This document shows, one piece after another, positions 1 through 4,074 of a stretch of DNA of 4,074 bases. The translations under genes and the position numbers were made by a program. Each line of letters opens with the position of its first letter. Positions within the stretch are counted from its first letter, which is position 1. The DNA lies in the IMG/VR virus record IMGVR_UViG_3300029241_000103, positions 1-4,074 of that record. One strand, written 5' to 3'. The notes beneath the pieces were generated by a model. It saw only the letters and a list, made by a program, of their open reading frames with translations, was not told the origin of the DNA and made no database searches. This DNA comes from a virus (Duplodnaviria; Heunggongvirae; Uroviricota; Caudoviricetes).

Positions 1-170
1 TGATGCCTGAAAAAACTGGTGTTTACTGGAATTCTCGGTTTAGCATTGCTCCTATGCTCGATAGGATGTACCGTTTTTGAAAAACAAGTAGTTATACACT
101 TTGTGGGAGCCTATTGGGAACCCGGTGTTTTCATTTCAAGGTGTAATCCATGCGGGGCATCAGAATGAGA

Positions 171-205: not shown

Positions 206-742
206 ATGATGCTTACCCTAGACGAGATAGGTCAATCTGTACGTAACAATATCCAGTTGATTATTGATCATGTCGGCTTACCTCTTGCTGTTGGTCCGCT
301 CAGTGATGATGATTACAAGATTCTGTGTGGTGGCTATGGTGAGCTTGAATGGGACTATGCGTTAAGCACCTATGGCAACTCCAGAGAAAAGTATGAGTTC
401 TGCATAAAACTTGTTCAGCAAGGTCGGGTTCAGGGAATACCATCAGGAGCAGCAATTTGTGTTTATGGGGTTGAAGAAAACATCTTTCGTATCCATATGA
501 TCGAAAGGTTTTCTAGAGAAGATGAATCTCACCCATTGAAAGGGCGCATGGTTTTACTCACTCTTATGAGTGCTTTTATATTTTGTAAAGCTGTTGAATG
601 TAAAGTTGTCCACATTGTAGAGCCAGTACCAGAACTGGTGCAGTATTACGAGTCTTTTGGTTTCCGCATGGAACAGTGCGGTTATGTGATGTCTGCAGTC
701 ATTGATGAGCTGCAGGATATCTTTCTTAAATTTGCTCAGTAG
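206..742 (+). CDS. Hypothetical protein, 178 aa, with a GNAT-like C-terminal motif (possible divergent acyl/acetyltransferase fold)
   Basis: Uninterrupted ORF ending at TAG 740-742. A weak SD (GAGAG, 198-202) precedes tandem ATGs at 206 and 209; the spacing favours 209. The segment PELVQYYESFGF resembles GNAT motif B (A-x-x-x-Y-E-x-x-G-F), and the predicted strand/helix order fits a GNAT fold. The glycine-rich motif A (R/Q-x-x-G-x-G/A) is not clearly present (HPLKGRMVLL). Looks AT-richer than the phage genes by eye. Confidence 0.55.
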   Translation: MMLTLDEIGQSVRNNIQLIIDHVGLPLAVGPLSDDDYKILCGGYGELEWDYALSTYGNSREKYEFCIKLVQQGRVQGIPSGAAICVYGVEENIFRIHMIERFSREDESHPLKGRMVLLTLMSAFIFCKAVECKVVHIVEPVPELVQYYESFGFRMEQCGYVMSAVIDELQDIFLKFAQ

Positions 743-938: not shown

Positions 939-1112
939 ATGAAAGATCAAAAAGCAACCAAGCCACAGGTTAAGTTCGACACAATGAAAGCATTCGCAGG
1001 TATGGGTGCTGCTGTTGAAGTTCTGATGAAGGCTGCTCCTAATGCGTTCACTCACGCTACTGTCTCTGGTAAAGAGCAGCAGGGTAAGCTTCGTCGTCGC
1101 AAAGCAGCATGA
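939..1112 (+). CDS. Small hypothetical protein, 57 aa (MKDQKATKPQVKFDTMKAFAGMGAAVEVLMKAAPNAFTHATVSGKEQQGKLRRRKAA), basic C-terminal tail
   Basis: Not in the supplied ORF track (presumably below its length cutoff); translated by hand. ATG at 939 follows SD GGGAG (928-932) with a 6-nt spacer. Stop is TGA at 1110-1112. Codon choice is typical of well-expressed enterobacterial genes (GGT, GCT, CGT, GTT, CTG, AAA, GAA). An intrinsic terminator follows 23 nt downstream. Confidence 0.5.
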   Translation: MKDQKATKPQVKFDTMKAFAGMGAAVEVLMKAAPNAFTHATVSGKEQQGKLRRRKAA

Positions 1113-1131
1113 TCATAGCTGGTGCTTTTTG

Positions 1132-1160
1132 AAAACCCGCCTTTAGGCGGGTTTTTTCTT
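1132..1160. terminator. Rho-independent (intrinsic) terminator, probably bidirectional, between convergent genes
   Basis: Stem CCCGCC (1136-1141), loop TTTA, stem GGCGGG (1146-1151), then TTTTTT (1152-1157) on the plus strand. AAAA (1132-1135) precedes the stem, so the minus strand reads hairpin then TTTTC. The minus-strand gene's stop (TAA, 1160-1162) sits immediately upstream of the hairpin in that orientation. Confidence 0.8.
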
Positions 1161-1441
1161 TAGTGATGTTCTTTGCCCTTCTGTTTGCTTGTTCTGACCT
1201 GTTCCCACTCGATACGTCCTTCTTCTCGTCTTTTGTCTATGTATTCCGCAAGATCCTGAATATTGATGCAACGTTTTGCTTTTTGTGATGTGCCGATGCG
1301 ATATGTTGGAACGGGCAACTTACAAGCGTTTGCTTTTGCTTCTGCCGTGGCTGGACTCATGCCAAAGTACTTTTGGCTAACTGCTGAGAGTTCAATGTTA
1401 GGGGTATTGAATTCAGCCATCAGTAAAAACAAGGTGTTCAT
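1160..1441 (-). CDS. PrtN-family / excisionase-like small DNA-binding protein (about 93 aa)
   Basis: The N-terminus MNTLFLLMAEF... and the segment ...KLPVPTYRIGTSQKAKRCINIQDLAEYID match, from memory, the conserved pattern of PrtN (pyocin activator) / phage Xis-like proteins. Start chosen as ATG at 1441, preceded by GGAG with a 6-nt spacer. The longer GTG-initiated reading to 1468 was not used. Confidence 0.65.
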   Translation of the reverse strand: MNTLFLLMAEFNTPNIELSAVSQKYFGMSPATAEAKANACKLPVPTYRIGTSQKAKRCINIQDLAEYIDKRREEGRIEWEQVRTSKQKGKEHH

Positions 1442-1477
1442 AATTTTCTCCATCAAAACCGGCTGCACCCGGGAAAA

Positions 1478-2050
1478 TCATAATTCTGTGCTGGTGGCAG
1501 GAATTAATTTCTGCCAGATAGCGGAAACATATTTTGCCTGATGACGGGCATCGGCCAGGGCGTTGTGCCGTTCGCCATCGAAAGGCATGTCCATTTTGGG
1601 GTCGAATCCGATGGAACGCCCAAGCGTAACGATCGTGCGTACATCGTGGTCATTCCAGTATGCCCACGGGCAGATTTGTCCTGCTCGCTCATAAGCTCCA
1701 CGTAAAATTACGTTGTCGAAGGTGGCCCCGTTACCCCAGACTTTTAAATATTTCGTATTGGCTGCGTGCCGGTTAATGAAATGATTTAGTTCTGAGAGAG
1801 CATCGCTGATCGACAAAGTATCATCAATACAGATTGCAGCTCGTGCTTCAGGGCTTTGTTTCAACCACCACAGGATGGTATCGCCGTCAGGTGTAGCTCC
1901 TTGCCCCATAGCACTTTCCAGGCTAACAACTGTATAGAATTCTTGTCCGATGTCTCCGGTTTCTGGAGTGAAGAACACCGCGCCAATGGAAACGATCGGT
2001 GCATCCTTATTTTTCCCCATCGTCTCAAGGTCGATCATTAAGTTGTTCAT
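1478..2050 (-). CDS. DEDDh-type (DnaQ-like) 3'-5' exonuclease, phage-encoded, about 190 aa
   Basis: All three Exo motifs can be read: Exo I IDLETMG (D-x-E), Exo II WGNGATFDNVIL (FD), Exo III HNALADARH (H-x-x-x-x-D). Strong SD AGGAGGT lies 6 nt before the ATG at 2050. The ATG overlaps the upstream gene's TGA (minus strand reads TGATG). Confidence 0.85.
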   Translation of the reverse strand: MNNLMIDLETMGKNKDAPIVSIGAVFFTPETGDIGQEFYTVVSLESAMGQGATPDGDTILWWLKQSPEARAAICIDDTLSISDALSELNHFINRHAANTKYLKVWGNGATFDNVILRGAYERAGQICPWAYWNDHDVRTIVTLGRSIGFDPKMDMPFDGERHNALADARHQAKYVSAIWQKLIPATSTEL

Positions 2051-2826
2051 CACTTCACCTCCTGCGGCGGTTCCGGTAGCGGCATCCAGTGAGTTGCTTG
2101 CTCAATACCATTACCCGGCTTAATCGTTGCATCTCCGCGCCGAAAGGTGCTTCCGGTATAGCGTGCGGAGCATATTAGCGGTTCAACCAGAGAGCTATCG
2201 AAATTCACCGAAATAAGCACGTTCTGGCCCTTTTCAGGCATTCGCTCACTACAGCTTATCCAACCATCCGGAGTTACCGGAGAGTTGCCATTTACATCGA
2301 AGTTTGGCTCTGCGTCCTGAACCAGGAGGATGTAACCATTCTTGGCTGTATCAAGTTCTAACGCCTCGGTGACGGTGCCGAAATAGCGATTACCTAAATC
2401 AGCATCACAAGTGCTTACATCAATGGAAACTTCCATGCCTTCGATTAATTCTGGCAAGTTGTAAGTTTGGCTTACAGGTTGGCTACCCTGAAGCATGGCG
2501 GCACGGCAGGCGTTCCAGCCATCAGCATATGTTTCAGTTACACCGTCGAGATGGCAGGTAAGCAAATCCATTTCATCAAGCACTACCAGCGCTGGCGGCG
2601 CGGTGTAAAGCTGGTGCGTTCCATCAGGCAGCGAGTGACCTACATACTCACCGAACCCGTCAACACACATGCACCCATCCTCAATAATGCATGACGCCAC
2701 TGGCTCTGCTTCCAGCGATGCCAGTGCAATTTCATACGACCGGCGCTCAATATTGTCTCGAACGTCCAGGCTGCCTATGCGCTCTTTGATTTCTTTAATC
2801 AGTTCTTTGTCGGTGAAAGTTGTCAT
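2050..2826 (-). CDS. Phage protein with C-terminal DUF551 domain, 258 aa
   Basis: The C-terminal region WISCSERMPEKGQNVLIS...ATHWMPLPEPP matches the DUF551 hallmark (THWMPLPEPP) as I recall it from enterobacterial prophage proteins. ATG at 2826 with SD GAGGA about 7 nt upstream. The acidic, Cys-containing N-terminal 150 aa is unassigned. Confidence 0.75.
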   Translation of the reverse strand: MTTFTDKELIKEIKERIGSLDVRDNIERRSYEIALASLEAEPVASCIIEDGCMCVDGFGEYVGHSLPDGTHQLYTAPPALVVLDEMDLLTCHLDGVTETYADGWNACRAAMLQGSQPVSQTYNLPELIEGMEVSIDVSTCDADLGNRYFGTVTEALELDTAKNGYILLVQDAEPNFDVNGNSPVTPDGWISCSERMPEKGQNVLISVNFDSSLVEPLICSARYTGSTFRRGDATIKPGNGIEQATHWMPLPEPPQEVK

Positions 2827-2829
2827 GTG

Positions 2830-3117
2830 TTAGTCCTCATCCACTTCAACGTCATCTTTCAGCGTGATGCCGTGCCAATCATCAGCCCAACTGGTTAGCC
2901 CTGGCGCATCAATGCTAGGCATATAGACGCTTGCAGTGTGGTAGCCCTTATCGTTATCAATGCTGGCAACGTGCTCGCCGTTGTATGCGCTCAGCGTGTC
3001 CAGGACGCTATAAAACTTTCCTCCGGCTGCCCTGAAATCCTTTACAGCCTTCACAAGGCGATTCCACGCTTTTTCCTGTTCTGGCGTCAGGTCGATTAAT
3101 TCCTGCAAAGTTGCCAT
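2830..3117 (-). CDS. Hypothetical phage protein, 95 aa, strongly acidic C-terminus (…LKDDVEVDED)
   Basis: Start at ATG 3117, preceded by SD AAGGAGAG. It sits 1 nt after the TGA of the upstream gene (minus strand reads TGATATG). The longer track ORF (to 3279) would overlap the Ead/Ea22-like CDS in another frame and was rejected. Confidence 0.7.
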   Translation of the reverse strand: MATLQELIDLTPEQEKAWNRLVKAVKDFRAAGGKFYSVLDTLSAYNGEHVASIDNDKGYHTASVYMPSIDAPGLTSWADDWHGITLKDDVEVDED

Positions 3118-3118
3118 A

Positions 3119-3790
3119 TCACTCTCCTTTGATGCGAATGCCAGCGGCGCGCTCGGCTTCACTTTGTTCCCAAAACCACTTGTGAAGCGCCATAAGCTTT
3201 TCGTCAATCGGTGCATATTTGCGATTAAAGTAGGCCTGAGCATCTTTCTCAGATTCGTCCGGTAATTCGCCAGGGCCAAACAGTGTGTTATAAATCCATG
3301 CCAGTCCGCTTTTAGCGTCGCCAGTTGCCTGCCATTCGATAATGGCAGCCTGCATGACCAGAATGTTTTTCCCGATTAATAGGTCCAGTTCTTTGTACCG
3401 GTTGCGGATGTATGCATTCTCGCTTTGTAATTTTGCGTTGCGCTTCTCTGCGGCTTCCAGCTTGGCTTCTGCATCTTTGGCTCGCATCTGCCAGTTGATA
3501 GCGATGTCGATAACGCTGTTAGCACAACTGGACTCGTTCTCTTCGGCAGCTTTAGCTTCAGAAAGCTCATCAAGCAATCCAAGAACAACAGTTGGCGTGG
3601 CGAGCGTGATAAAACGCATATTGCTCATATGCTCTTCATCGCTAACATCATCGCCAGCCTCGACCGCTGCCATGTGCTGAACATAGCCGCTATCACAGGT
3701 ATTCCAGATTGCCCCTGCCTCGTGACCCCATTCACCATGTAGTGCTTTTTCTGCCGCCTCACGCAGTGCCTGGTAATTAATTTCGCTCAC
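3119..3790 (-). CDS. Ead/Ea22-like family phage protein, 223 aa, with central coiled-coil-like region
   Basis: The N-terminus MSEINYQALREAAEKALHGEW... resembles Ead/Ea22-like proteins of lambdoid prophages (from memory). The central segment EAKAAEE...AKDAEAKLEAAEKRNAKLQSENAYIRNRYKEL looks coiled-coil. Start is GTG at 3790, with a near-perfect SD AAGGAGG 6 nt upstream. GTG overlaps the upstream stop (GTGA). Confidence 0.7.
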   Translation of the reverse strand: MSEINYQALREAAEKALHGEWGHEAGAIWNTCDSGYVQHMAAVEAGDDVSDEEHMSNMRFITLATPTVVLGLLDELSEAKAAEENESSCANSVIDIAINWQMRAKDAEAKLEAAEKRNAKLQSENAYIRNRYKELDLLIGKNILVMQAAIIEWQATGDAKSGLAWIYNTLFGPGELPDESEKDAQAYFNRKYAPIDEKLMALHKWFWEQSEAERAAGIRIKGE

Positions 3791-4035
3791 TGGTTGCCTC
3801 CTTTACGGACTTTACGGATCTGCGCTGCGATGCGCGAAAAAAAAGACTCCCGCGTATGACTGTTAAGAGCTGGCGCGAACGCTGCGTTAAGAACGGCAGC
3901 ATCACAGCCGTCATCGATATAGAGCGCAATTTTTTTCTCCAGGCGCGCTTTGGCTTCCTGCAACTGCATACCCCGGCACGCACGCGGGATATACTCAGCA
4001 ATTTGAGCGATAGATTTTTCGTTCTGTTTAAACAT
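3787..4035 (-). CDS. Hypothetical phage protein, 82 aa
   Basis: ATG at 4035, preceded by SD GAGGTGA. Stop TGA (3789..3787) overlaps the GTG start of the next gene. Translation MFKQNEKSIAQIAEYIPRACRGMQLQ... has no family I can name. Confidence 0.6.
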   Translation of the reverse strand: MFKQNEKSIAQIAEYIPRACRGMQLQEAKARLEKKIALYIDDGCDAAVLNAAFAPALNSHTRESFFSRIAAQIRKVRKGGNQ

Positions 4036-4074
4036 GCTTCACCTCGATAGGCTTGATGGTGTCGATCAGTAGTC
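4028..4074 (-). CDS. 3' end of an upstream minus-strand CDS (partial; C-terminal residues …LLIDTIKPIEVKHV)
   Basis: One minus-strand frame is open from the window edge to TAA at 4030..4028, which overlaps codons 2-3 of the 82-aa gene (ATGTTTAA). Only 14 codons are visible, and a second frame is also open here, so the call is tentative. Confidence 0.3.
   Translation of the reverse strand, partial: LLIDTIKPIEVKHV

What the first reader, a model, noticed from the sequence alone, without database searches (positions are those of the whole stretch)
1478..2050. Stand-alone DEDDh 3'-5' exonuclease where lambda carries Exo/Bet
The motifs are complete (D-x-E, FD, H-x-x-x-x-D), so the enzyme is probably active. 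No RecT/Bet-like annealase partner is visible in the window, although one could lie upstream of 4074. Small phage DEDDh nucleases could act in recombination or repair, in host nucleic-acid turnover, or in counter-defence by degrading nucleic-acid or oligonucleotide signals. The substrate cannot be inferred from sequence.
Basis: partly seen in the sequence, partly recalled or inferred. Interest (0 to 1): 0.4.

Follow-up and report, generated by a model that had tools for sequence, protein, structure and literature searches.

The report
Prophage DexA-family 3'-5' exonuclease gene
This is an intact, already catalogued 3'-to-5' exonuclease gene of the T4 DexA family, the last early gene before the excisionase in a common E. 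coli temperate phage; it is ordinary, it is not a stand-in for lambda Exo, and its biological role is untested.

Summary
Window 1478-2050 (- strand) encodes a 190-aa single-domain DEDDh exonuclease. It matches Pfam PF16473 (Rv2179c-like) end to end (E 3.7e-75), all five catalytic residues are present, and the gene is under strong purifying selection (dN/dS about 0.08).

The protein is 100% identical to phage mEp460 gp26 and to RefSeq WP_001061345.1. That accession is already listed as a DexA homologue in Kang et al. 2025 (NAR). About 11% of complete E. coli genomes carry the gene. Its closest solved relative is T4 DexA, a DNA exonuclease.

The gene is translationally coupled inside the leftward early operon, directly upstream of xis. 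This is lambda's accessory 'exo-xis' region, not the Exo/Bet slot. In near-identical prophages the whole operon up to the repressor contains no recognisable annealase.

The nearest sister clades (51-64% identity) are informative. One sits in an Erf-SSB-Exo-Abc2 module. The other is fused to the N-terminal region of RecE in place of RecE's 5'-3' nuclease domain.

My best reading is a DexA-like exonuclease acting on DNA 3' ends in early phage DNA metabolism. Exclusion of hmC phages, an RNA substrate, and interplay with host defences are not excluded. Known family, low novelty.

The parts
1478..2050 (-). Exonuclease gene: 190 aa plus stop, a single DEDDh (PF16473, DexA/Rv2179c-like) domain
   Evidence: 100% identical to mEp460 gp26 and to WP_001061345.1. 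AF2 model pLDDT 89.4. Top PDB fold match is T4 DexA.
2024..2032 (-). Exo I motif, codons D7-L8-E9 (metal-binding acidic residues)
   Evidence: Coordinates. Invariant in alignments A2 and A1, which includes T4 DexA D7/E9.
1715..1720 (-). Exo II motif, codons F111-D112
   Evidence: Both residues are invariant in the alignments.
1550..1567 (-). Exo III motif, codons H162-N-A-L-A-D167 (the 'h' histidine and the last acidic residue)
   Evidence: Aligns with DexA H186/D191. Invariant in A2.
1655..1657 (-). Codon W132, equivalent to DexA W152, which contributes to the partner subunit's active site in the DexA dimer
   Evidence: The role in DexA is taken from PMC12153337. A role here is inferred.
2048..2062 (-). 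Translational coupling to the upstream gene: a GGAGG Shine-Dalgarno at 2058-2062, and the start ATG (2048-2050) sharing one base with the DUF551 gene's TGA stop (2050-2052)
   Evidence: Read directly from the sequence and the ORF coordinates.
2050..2826 (-). Upstream gene in the same operon: 258-aa protein with a C-terminal DUF551 domain
   Evidence: Pfam PF04448, E 4.1e-22. A DUF551-containing protein is the upstream neighbour in 19 of 80 related loci.
1160..1441 (-). Downstream gene: excisionase (93 aa, PrtN/pyocin-activator family), the last gene of the leftward operon
   Evidence: Pfam PF11112, E 4.1e-23. PHROG 1300 'excisionase'. Called as 93 aa in L007-L011.
2830..4035 (-). Further upstream operon genes, tightly packed or overlapping: 95-aa ORF (2830-3117), Ea22-like 223-aa protein (3119-3790), 82-aa ORF (3787-4035)
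   Evidence: No sigma-70-like promoter was found on the - strand anywhere in the window.
1131..1156 (+). GC-rich hairpin between the convergent + strand accessory genes and xis. It looks like a terminator on the + strand.

Best explanation
The gene encodes an active, Mg2+-dependent DEDDh 3'->5' exonuclease of the T4 DexA branch of PF16473, probably a homodimer. It is made early in lytic growth or induction as the second-to-last gene of the leftward (pL-type) operon of an mEp460/SfV-like lambdoid phage that integrates at dusA. It is translationally coupled to the upstream DUF551 gene and lies directly before xis.

Shown: family membership, complete catalytic residues, purifying selection, operon position, and the absence of a recognisable annealase in this phage type.

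Inferred: it removes nucleotides from free DNA 3' ends (single-stranded DNA, 3' tails or flaps, oligonucleotides), as DexA does. On this reading it serves as an accessory DNA-end-processing or nucleotide-recycling enzyme in early phage DNA metabolism. It does not serve as the 5'->3' resection partner of an annealase.
For: - Family and catalytic residues: full-length PF16473 match; catalytic residues invariant.
- Closest solved relative is T4 DexA: by sequence (phmmer E 4.6e-11; profile E 7.2e-16) and by fold (Foldseek E 4.5e-11, TM 0.73).
- RNase AS/Rv2179c is more distant: not detected by sequence at E<=0.01, and a fold match only at E 2e-5.
- DexA and the E. coli homologue EcD both digest DNA in vitro (PMC12153337).
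- Operon position: start codon overlaps the upstream stop, strong SD, no internal promoter found.
- Selection: dN/dS about 0.08 and 80 of 80 related copies intact.
- Nearest clades in an NJ tree point to DNA-end metabolism. The mEp235/P22-like clade (60-61% identity) lies in the order Erf-SSB-Exo-Abc2 in about 73 of 80 loci. The other clade (51-62% identity) is fused C-terminally to the RecE N-terminal region in place of RecE's PDDEXK head; P0252 is 88% identical to Rac RecE over residues 1-592.
- From established knowledge (Huang et al. 1999, Genetics, not re-read here): T4 DexA trims 3' ends during double-strand-break repair in intron homing.
Against: - No biochemistry or genetics exists for this orthologue.
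- In this phage type there is no annealase or phage SSB to cooperate with.
- The RecE-N fusions also lack RecT, so the recombination link is by association only.
- PF16473 is named after an exoribonuclease, so an RNA substrate is not excluded.
- The only functional claim for an E. coli homologue is anti-T4 defence, not phage DNA metabolism (PMC12153337).
- The IMG/VR loci used for the neighbour counts are mostly near-identical prophages, so the counts are not independent events.
Confidence: 0.5

Rival explanations
1. HREX-type exclusion. The enzyme selectively digests incoming hydroxymethylcytosine-modified DNA of T-even phages and so protects the lysogen or the infected cell, as claimed for the E. 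coli homologue EcD.
For: Kang et al. 2025 report that plasmid-borne EcD digests T4 DNA, spares unmodified dsDNA and protects against T4 (PMC12153337). From their cloning primers I traced EcD to a P2-like prophage protein that is 38% identical to the window protein. The window protein itself (WP_001061345.1) is in their Table S3 of DexA homologues. The Trp equivalent to DexA W152 is conserved.
Against: The acidic residue they assign to hmC recognition (DexA D169; E149 in the EcD-like protein) is Arg in this protein and Arg, Lys or Leu in its close relatives. The 'tetramer' Asp (D90) that EcD lacks is present here as D84. Both assignments rest on an alignment that is gapped nearby. The gene sits inside the repressed early-lytic operon, with no promoter of its own detected. 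EcD itself lies in the early operon of a P2-like prophage, and the defence phenotype came from a pET plasmid. Identity to EcD is only 38%, against 51-64% to the clades linked to recombination genes.
Confidence: 0.12
2. RNA exonuclease. Like RNase AS/Rv2179c, it trims RNA 3' ends (poly(A) tails or mRNA 3' ends). Given its constant position next to xis/int, it might tune the stability of the xis-int message or of host RNAs.
For: It belongs to the same Pfam family as RNase AS. Fold matches include RNase AS, Orn/REXO2 and RNase T. NCBI names many homologues '3'-5' exoribonuclease'. The gene lies next to the xis/int module in almost every temperate context examined, across at least four unrelated xis types. 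From textbook knowledge, lambda int is retro-regulated through 3'->5' RNA decay.
Against: It is much closer to DexA than to RNase AS in both sequence and fold. The two characterised closer relatives, DexA and EcD, act on DNA. Adjacency to xis may simply reflect slot conservation in mosaic lambdoid genomes. No RNA element was detected in the window.
Confidence: 0.12
3. Interplay with host defence. The exonuclease destroys a nucleic-acid component or signal of a host defence (retron msDNA, reverse-transcriptase cDNA, oligonucleotide second messengers). Alternatively, its activity on DNA ends is what RecBCD-guarding systems sense.
For: In Vibrio phages, mutations that escape retron Ec48 map to a phage 'RNaseT/DNA pol III-domain' exonuclease encoded next to SSB and an SSAP system (preprint 10.1101/2021.05.05.442762). 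In the mEp235/P22-like clade the exonuclease lies directly beside the anti-RecBCD gene abc2. The same operon carries a PAPS-reductase-like gene, a domain shown to confer anti-Dnd activity in that preprint. Fold neighbours include Orn and the CBASS-associated exonuclease Cap18.
Against: I could not obtain the Vibrio exonuclease sequence, so its membership in this family is untested. PADLOC gives only a weak generic DEDDh hit (E 2.2e-5). There is no direct evidence for any defence target.
Confidence: 0.12
4. Functional replacement of lambda Exo or RecE as the resection half of a two-component (exonuclease plus annealase) recombination system.
For: Homologues fused to the RecE N-terminal region occupy the recE slot in Rac-like prophages.
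Against: DEDDh enzymes digest 3'->5', the wrong polarity for producing 3' tails for an annealase. No annealase is present in this phage type or next to the RecE-N fusions. YfdQ, the only large conserved unknown in the operon, shows no fold similarity to any solved annealase. The gene lies in the exo-xis accessory region, not the exo/bet slot.
Confidence: 0.03

Closest known systems
T4 DexA (exonuclease A; PDB 8KEL/8KEN)
   Same: Same Pfam family and DEDDh catalytic residues. It is the best sequence and fold match among solved structures, and the Trp equivalent to DexA W152 is conserved. Both are small, stand-alone, early phage genes.
   Different: Identity is only about 27%. DexA is 227 aa, with extra loops and helices. 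[quoted passage not shown] The window protein has Arg where DexA has D169 and sits in a temperate-phage operon next to xis.
EcD / 'HREX' exonuclease (Kang et al. 2025, PMC12153337)
   Same: An E. coli prophage-borne DexA homologue of about 190 aa from the same family. The window protein's RefSeq accession is in the same paper's homologue table.
   Different: 38% identity. EcD comes from the early region of a P2-like prophage. It has Ala or a gap where this protein has D84, and an acidic residue where this protein has R145 (190-aa numbering; R146 in the 191-aa numbering). Anti-T4 activity was shown only for EcD, expressed from a plasmid.
RNase AS / Rv2179c (M. tuberculosis; PDB 4OKE, 6S0M)
   Same: It is the founding member of PF16473, with the same fold and DEDDh motifs.
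   Different: It is a cellular, poly(A)-specific exoribonuclease. It is not detectable by sequence search from this protein or its profile, and its fold match is weaker (E about 2e-5) than DexA's.
RecE (Rac exonuclease VIII) and the RecE-N::DEDDh fusion proteins
   Same: Homologues 51-62% identical to the window protein form the C-terminal domain of 385-901-aa proteins. Their N-terminal regions are homologous to RecE residues 1-592, up to 88% identical. Like the window gene, these fusions lie directly before xis/int.
   Different: RecE's catalytic head is a PD-(D/E)XK 5'->3' dsDNA exonuclease (PF12684) that works with RecT. The window protein has no RecE-like N-terminal region, the opposite polarity and no RecT.
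Lambda Exo/Bet (Red) module
   Same: Both are early-leftward-operon nuclease genes of lambdoid phages.
   Different: The fold (PD-(D/E)XK trimer), polarity (5'->3'), partner (the Bet annealase) and map position all differ. The window gene lies in the region lambda fills with ea8.5/ea22.
Erf-SSB-Exo-Abc2 module of mEp235, mEpX2 and P22-like phages
   Same: The exonuclease is about 61% identical to the window protein and belongs to the same enterobacterial clade.
   Different: There it is embedded between a phage SSB and the anti-RecBCD gene abc2, next to the Erf annealase (73-79 of 80 loci). In the window's phage type none of these partners is present.

Membership tests
DEDDh (DnaQ-like) 3'-5' exonuclease superfamily | Exo I D-x-E, Exo II D and Exo III H-x4-D motifs | tested here: met
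   D7/E9, D112 and H162/D167 are present and invariant.
DEDDh (DnaQ-like) 3'-5' exonuclease superfamily | RNase H-like alpha/beta fold | tested here: met
   AF2 model pLDDT 89.4. 96 PDB matches at E<=1e-3; all 50 listed are DEDDh exonucleases: DexA, REXO2/Orn, RNase T, RNase AS, Cap18, 3'hExo/ERI1.
DEDDh (DnaQ-like) 3'-5' exonuclease superfamily | Metal-dependent 3'->5' exonuclease activity | not testable with these tools
   Needs purified protein and D7A/E9A controls.
PF16473 Rv2179c-like / DexA family | Full-length match above the curated threshold | tested here: met
   251.9 bits against a cut-off of 27, positions 1-177 of 177.
PF16473 Rv2179c-like / DexA family | Closest solved structure is a family member | tested here: met
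   T4 DexA is the top hit by sequence and by fold.
PF16473 Rv2179c-like / DexA family | Homodimer with a partner-subunit Trp at the active site | tested here: inconclusive
   The Trp (W132) is invariant. The oligomeric state was not modelled.
HREX / EcD-type hmC-DNA-specific defence exonuclease (Kang 2025) | Loss of the DexA D90 'tetramer' residue | tested here: not met
   D84 aligns with DexA D90; the EcD-like protein has Ala or a gap there. The residue varies among close homologues, so its weight is limited.
HREX / EcD-type hmC-DNA-specific defence exonuclease (Kang 2025) | Trp plus an acidic residue (DexA W152 and D169) for hmC recognition | tested here: not met
   The Trp is conserved, but the D169 position is Arg here (E149 in the EcD-like protein). 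The alignment is gapped nearby.
HREX / EcD-type hmC-DNA-specific defence exonuclease (Kang 2025) | Selective digestion of hmC DNA and protection against T4 | not testable with these tools
   Experimental.
HREX / EcD-type hmC-DNA-specific defence exonuclease (Kang 2025) | Expression in the uninfected or lysogenic cell | tested here: inconclusive
   The gene is internal to the early-lytic operon and no sigma-70-like promoter was found on its strand. A consensus scan cannot exclude weak promoters.
Two-component recombination exonucleases (lambda Exo, RecE, YqaJ) | PD-(D/E)XK nuclease fold with 5'->3' polarity | tested here: not met
   The fold is DEDDh. Rac RecE carries PF12684 PDDEXK.
Two-component recombination exonucleases (lambda Exo, RecE, YqaJ) | Adjacent single-strand annealing protein gene | tested here: not met
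   None in the window or in the full operon of 99.6-99.8% identical prophages. RecT in 0 of 80 and Erf in 1 of 80 loci. YfdQ shows no annealase-like fold match.
DNA polymerase proofreading domain or subunit (DnaQ/epsilon) | Match to the RNase_T/DnaQ model, and fusion to or adjacency with a polymerase | tested here: not met
   PF00929 scores 20.8 bits, below its cut-off of 24. The PHROG 'polymerase exonuclease subunit' hit is E 2.6e-8 against 4e-94 for phrog_255. No polymerase gene is in the operon.
RNase AS-type poly(A) exoribonuclease | Specific sequence relationship to Rv2179c and RNA or poly(A) specificity | tested here: inconclusive
   Same Pfam family, but Rv2179c is not found by phmmer or profile search and its fold match is weaker than DexA's. 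Substrate specificity cannot be tested here.
TONDO / ISG20-like anti-RNA-phage exonucleases (preprint PMC13344964) | Membership of the ISG20-like DEDDh clade, usually with an auxiliary domain | not tested
The window protein has no auxiliary domain. The preprint describes a clade selected by homology to ISG20.

The most novel reading that the evidence does not exclude
The enterobacterial clade containing this gene may be an unrecognised class of temperate-phage DNA-end enzymes: an exchangeable 3'->5' nuclease domain. The same domain occurs alone, between SSB and Abc2 beside Erf, or grafted onto the RecE N-terminal region in place of the 5'->3' domain. In almost every case it lies next to the xis/int module. 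This could reflect a real functional tie to excision/integration, or to manipulation of RecBCD and of the systems that guard it, rather than mere slot conservation.
Probability: 0.15. Interest if true: 0.55.

Novelty: already known. Interest (0 to 1): 0.27.

Why it matters
As it stands, little changes. The gene is a common, correctly annotated member of a characterised exonuclease family, and the exact protein is already in RefSeq, in phage mEp460 and in a published list of DexA homologues.

Two points give it modest value:
- The only functional claim for E. coli homologues is 'bacterial' defence against hmC phages. That claim rests on a gene that is in fact an early gene of a P2-like prophage. 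The window protein lacks two of the residues the claim depends on. The function of the much more common lambdoid version is therefore still open.
- The fusions between the RecE N-terminal region and this domain, and the Erf-SSB-Exo-Abc2 arrangement, offer a concrete and testable link between 3'->5' exonucleases and phage DNA-end metabolism.

mEp460 is a cultivable phage with an identical gene, so the experiments are easy to set up.

Tried and rejected
- **Locating EcD.** The reverse primer alone gave one chance hit in IMG/VR with no exonuclease ORF. A concatenated-primer BLAST against E. coli genomes then found the gene family.
- **Is YfdQ/DUF2303 the missing annealase?** A solved 'YfdQ protein' entry exists (9o7m, 36 chains). 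I found no paper for it. My AF2 model (pLDDT 77) has no significant PDB fold match and none to Rad52, Redbeta, RecT or Erf. I rejected the idea for lack of evidence, but it is not disproved.
- **Is the retron-Ec48-escape exonuclease of Vibrio phage 66E30.1 in this family?** No accession could be obtained. Two Vibrio phages I inspected (K268, PS10B.1) are different phages. Left untested.
- **Literature searches.** The search with 'RNase AS', 'PF16473' and 'DexA-like' returned only noise. Searches for mEp460 found no functional study of gp26.
- **RNA genes.** Rfam and tRNA scans of the window found nothing.
- **DUF551 as an obligate partner.** It is the upstream neighbour in only 19 of 80 loci, so I rejected this.
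- **Polymerase proofreading fragment.** Rejected.
Full report
**What is there.** The window carries a tightly packed leftward gene string: an 82-aa ORF (3787-4035), an Ea22-like protein (3119-3790), a 95-aa ORF (2830-3117), a DUF551 protein (2050-2826), the gene in question (1478-2050) and an excisionase of the PrtN family (1160-1441). Two rightward accessory genes (206-742, 939-1112) end at a hairpin terminator at 1131-1156.

The protein covers the whole Pfam model PF16473 (Rv2179c-like 3'-5' exoribonuclease domain; E 3.7e-75) and PHROG 255 'exonuclease' (E 4e-94). The DEDDh residues are D7, E9, D112, H162 and D167. All are present, invariant among 39 homologues, and aligned with the catalytic residues of T4 DexA. 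The AlphaFold2 model is confident (pLDDT 89.4). Its best PDB matches are T4 DexA (E 4.5e-11, TM 0.73), followed by REXO2/Orn, RNase T, RNase AS and Cap18. Median dN/dS against relatives is about 0.08, and 80 of 80 related copies are intact.

**Where it comes from and how common it is.** The window is an exact match to an ENA metagenome contig (L011) that represents the unintegrated phage form, with int and dinI beyond the left end. It is 98% identical over most of its length to coliphage mEp460 and to prophages inserted at dusA next to zur and lexA.

The protein is 100% identical to mEp460 gp26 ('exonuclease') and to RefSeq WP_001061345.1 ('3'-5' exonuclease'). A gene at least 80% identical at the DNA level is present in 615 of 5,426 complete E. 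coli genomes. Homologues occur in 1,279 of 50,697 phage records, including T-even dexA. An exhaustive phmmer search finds 11,657 cluster representatives at E<=1e-3. It is an ordinary, widespread gene.

**Map position.** The gene is not where lambda has exo/bet. It directly abuts xis and is preceded by an Ea22-like gene. The literature calls this the accessory 'exo-xis region' (PMC10834534). From my own knowledge, lambda's order is int, xis, ea8.5, ea22, orf61/63/60a, exo, bet.

The start ATG shares a base with the upstream TGA and has a GGAGG seven bases upstream. No sigma-70-like promoter was found on this strand in the window. The gene is therefore most likely expressed with the early leftward operon, not in the repressed lysogen. 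That last step is an inference.

**The annealase question.** In 99.6-99.8% identical prophages the full operon from the repressor reads: YfdP, YfdQ (DUF2303), a YfdR-like 5'-deoxynucleotidase, a PAPS-reductase-like protein, three small ORFs, Ea22-like, DUF551, exonuclease, xis. There is no RecT, Bet, Erf, YqaJ or SSB. Across 80 IMG/VR loci of this clade (75-100% identity), RecT and YqaJ were found in 0 and Erf in 1. YfdR was found in 72 and YfdQ in 59.

I tested whether YfdQ might be a cryptic annealase. A solved structure exists (9o7m, 36 chains). My model has no significant fold match, and none to known annealases. So the gene is stand-alone in this phage type. A DEDDh enzyme also has the wrong polarity (3'->5') to replace lambda Exo or RecE, which digest 5'->3'.

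**What the relatives say.** Three lines of evidence bear on function.

1. *Characterised family members.* T4 DexA is a DNA exonuclease. Kang et al. 2025 (PMC12153337) report that an E. coli homologue, EcD, digests hmC-containing T4 DNA and protects against T4 when expressed from a plasmid. They call this HREX.
   - Using their cloning primers, I located EcD in the early region of a P2-like prophage. It is 38% identical to the window protein.
   - The window protein's own accession appears in their Table S3.
   - By their criteria this protein is not EcD-like. It keeps the Asp equivalent to DexA D90, and it has Arg where DexA has D169 and EcD has Glu.
   - RNase AS/Rv2179c, the RNA-specific founder of the Pfam family, is not detectable by sequence or profile from this clade.

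2. *Gene neighbourhood in the nearest clades.* In mEp235, mEpX2 and P22-like phages the orthologue (about 61% identical) lies in the order Erf-SSB-Exo-Abc2. Of 80 loci, Erf was found in 73, SSB in 74 and Abc2 in 79.

3. *Domain fusion.* Among the best hits are 385-901-aa proteins with this domain at the C-terminus (51-62% identity).
   - Sixteen of the 26 examined have N-terminal regions homologous to RecE.
   - P0252 is 88% identical to Rac RecE over residues 1-592 and then switches to the DEDDh domain in place of the PDDEXK head.
   - These fusions lie in Rac-like or e14-like prophages directly before xis/int, and no RecT is present.

An NJ tree without bootstrap groups the window clade, the fusions and the Erf-linked clade together. 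The EcD-like protein, the Vibrio homologues and DexA fall outside that group.

**Interpretation.** The best-supported reading is a DexA-like, probably dimeric, Mg2+-dependent exonuclease that removes nucleotides from free DNA 3' ends. It would be produced early in lytic growth or induction as an accessory DNA-end-processing or recycling enzyme. What is shown is family, active site, selection, operon position and the lack of a partner. Substrate and role are inferred from the closest relatives and from the associations with Erf, SSB, Abc2 and RecE. I put this at about 0.5.

The rivals are:
- hmC-phage exclusion (about 0.12). It is weakened by the missing determinant residues, the early-operon position and the low identity to EcD.
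- An RNA substrate, possibly tied to xis/int expression (about 0.12). It is prompted by the family name and the constant adjacency to xis/int, but weakened by the closer kinship to DexA.
- Interplay with host defence (about 0.12). It is prompted by retron-Ec48 escape mutations in a Vibrio phage exonuclease next to SSB and SSAP genes (preprint 10.1101/2021.05.05.442762). I could not test whether that protein belongs to this family.
- A true replacement for lambda Exo (about 0.03).

**An unexplained regularity.** In almost every temperate context I examined, the DEDDh gene or domain is the last or nearly last gene before the integration module.
- In the window clade the next gene is a small excisionase-position ORF in 68 of 79 loci. 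These ORFs fall into four sequence-unrelated clusters. Two are recognised excisionase families (PrtN and DUF1233); the other two have no Pfam match. An integrase follows in 31 loci.
- The RecE-N fusions are followed by xis/int or by int directly.
- Vibrio phage K268 has the gene directly before int, and Citrobacter phage phiNP directly before xis.

This may be plain slot conservation in mosaic genomes, or a functional link. The data do not decide.

**Verdict.** The object is a known, annotated member of a characterised family, so novelty is low. The residual interest lies in its untested role in lambdoid phages and in the RecE-head swap seen in sister genes.

Noticed in passing
Related proteins P0243-P0264; loci L178, L179, L183, L184, L185: RecE 'head swap'. 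Proteins of 385-901 aa carry the RecE N-terminal region followed by this DEDDh domain instead of RecE's PDDEXK 5'-3' nuclease domain. P0252 is 88% identical to Rac RecE over residues 1-592. In Rac-like prophages the fusion is followed directly by xis/int, and recT, ralR and rcbA are absent. These proteins are often annotated 'exodeoxyribonuclease VIII'.
   Followed up: partly
L013 7001-7549 (mEp235), L094 4001-4549 (Salmonella phage NM-3), L098-L177: A sister clade of the exonuclease (about 61% identity) sits in the conserved order Erf - SSB - Exo - Abc2 (anti-RecBCD). Relative to P22 (erf-abc1-abc2, from my own knowledge), SSB plus Exo occupy the abc1 position.
   Followed up: partly
Window 1160-2050 and loci L014-L093, L097, L181: The DEDDh gene lies next to the xis/int module almost everywhere, although the downstream small ORFs fall into at least four unrelated sequence clusters (two are recognised excisionase families, PrtN and DUF1233). 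The reason for this constant adjacency is unexplained.
   Followed up: partly
Window 3119-3790 (- strand): Residues 112-210 of the Ea22-like protein match the PADLOC model 'DpdH' (E 4.8e-37), a component listed for the Dpd 7-deazaguanine DNA-modification defence cluster. The N-terminal half matches Pfam Ead_Ea22.
   Followed up: no
L011 155-1033 and L007 7730-8608 (just upstream of window position 4074): A 292-aa PAPS-reductase-like gene lies in the same early operon. A phage PAPS domain was shown to confer resistance to the Dnd defence in Vibrio phages (preprint 10.1101/2021.05.05.442762). mEp460 itself lacks this gene at that position.
   Followed up: no
L007 6250-7074 (YfdQ/DUF2303), upstream of the window: YfdQ is conserved in 59 of 80 loci of this phage type. 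It has a solved PDB entry (9o7m, 36 chains) but no paper I could find, and no detectable fold relative for my AF2 model. Its function is unknown. It sits roughly where other lambdoid phages carry their recombination genes.
   Followed up: partly
Window 1-60: This is the left end, the phage attachment region within a surrogate 5' fragment of dusA (annotated 'tRNA-dihydrouridine synthase, incomplete' in relatives). Prophage copies L007-L010 diverge from the phage form to the left of positions 45-54, which places the crossover there. The integrase lies on the other side of attP, separated from xis.
   Followed up: partly
Window 206-742 and 939-1112 (+ strand): Two rightward genes between attP and xis (178 aa, phrog_4350; 57 aa, phrog_2741) are convergent with the early operon and end at a strong hairpin terminator. 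They have no Pfam, NCBIfam or PADLOC match. Their position suggests accessory genes expressed in the lysogen.
   Followed up: no
L004 8989-9570 (E. coli S19-651, P2-like prophage): EcD, the 'bacterial' HREX defence exonuclease of Kang et al. 2025, maps to the early region of a P2-like prophage. It lies between small early genes and a ParE-like gene, a Dam methylase and the replication endonuclease gene. It is therefore a phage early gene rather than a host chromosomal defence gene.
   Followed up: partly
L012 7883-8456 (phage SKA5); L097 4001-4474 (phiNP): Some deposited phages carry split or truncated copies of the exonuclease gene: two overlapping 'exodeoxyribonuclease VIII' CDSs in SKA5 and a 474-nt CDS in phiNP. 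Either the gene is dispensable in those phages or these are sequencing or annotation errors.
   Followed up: no
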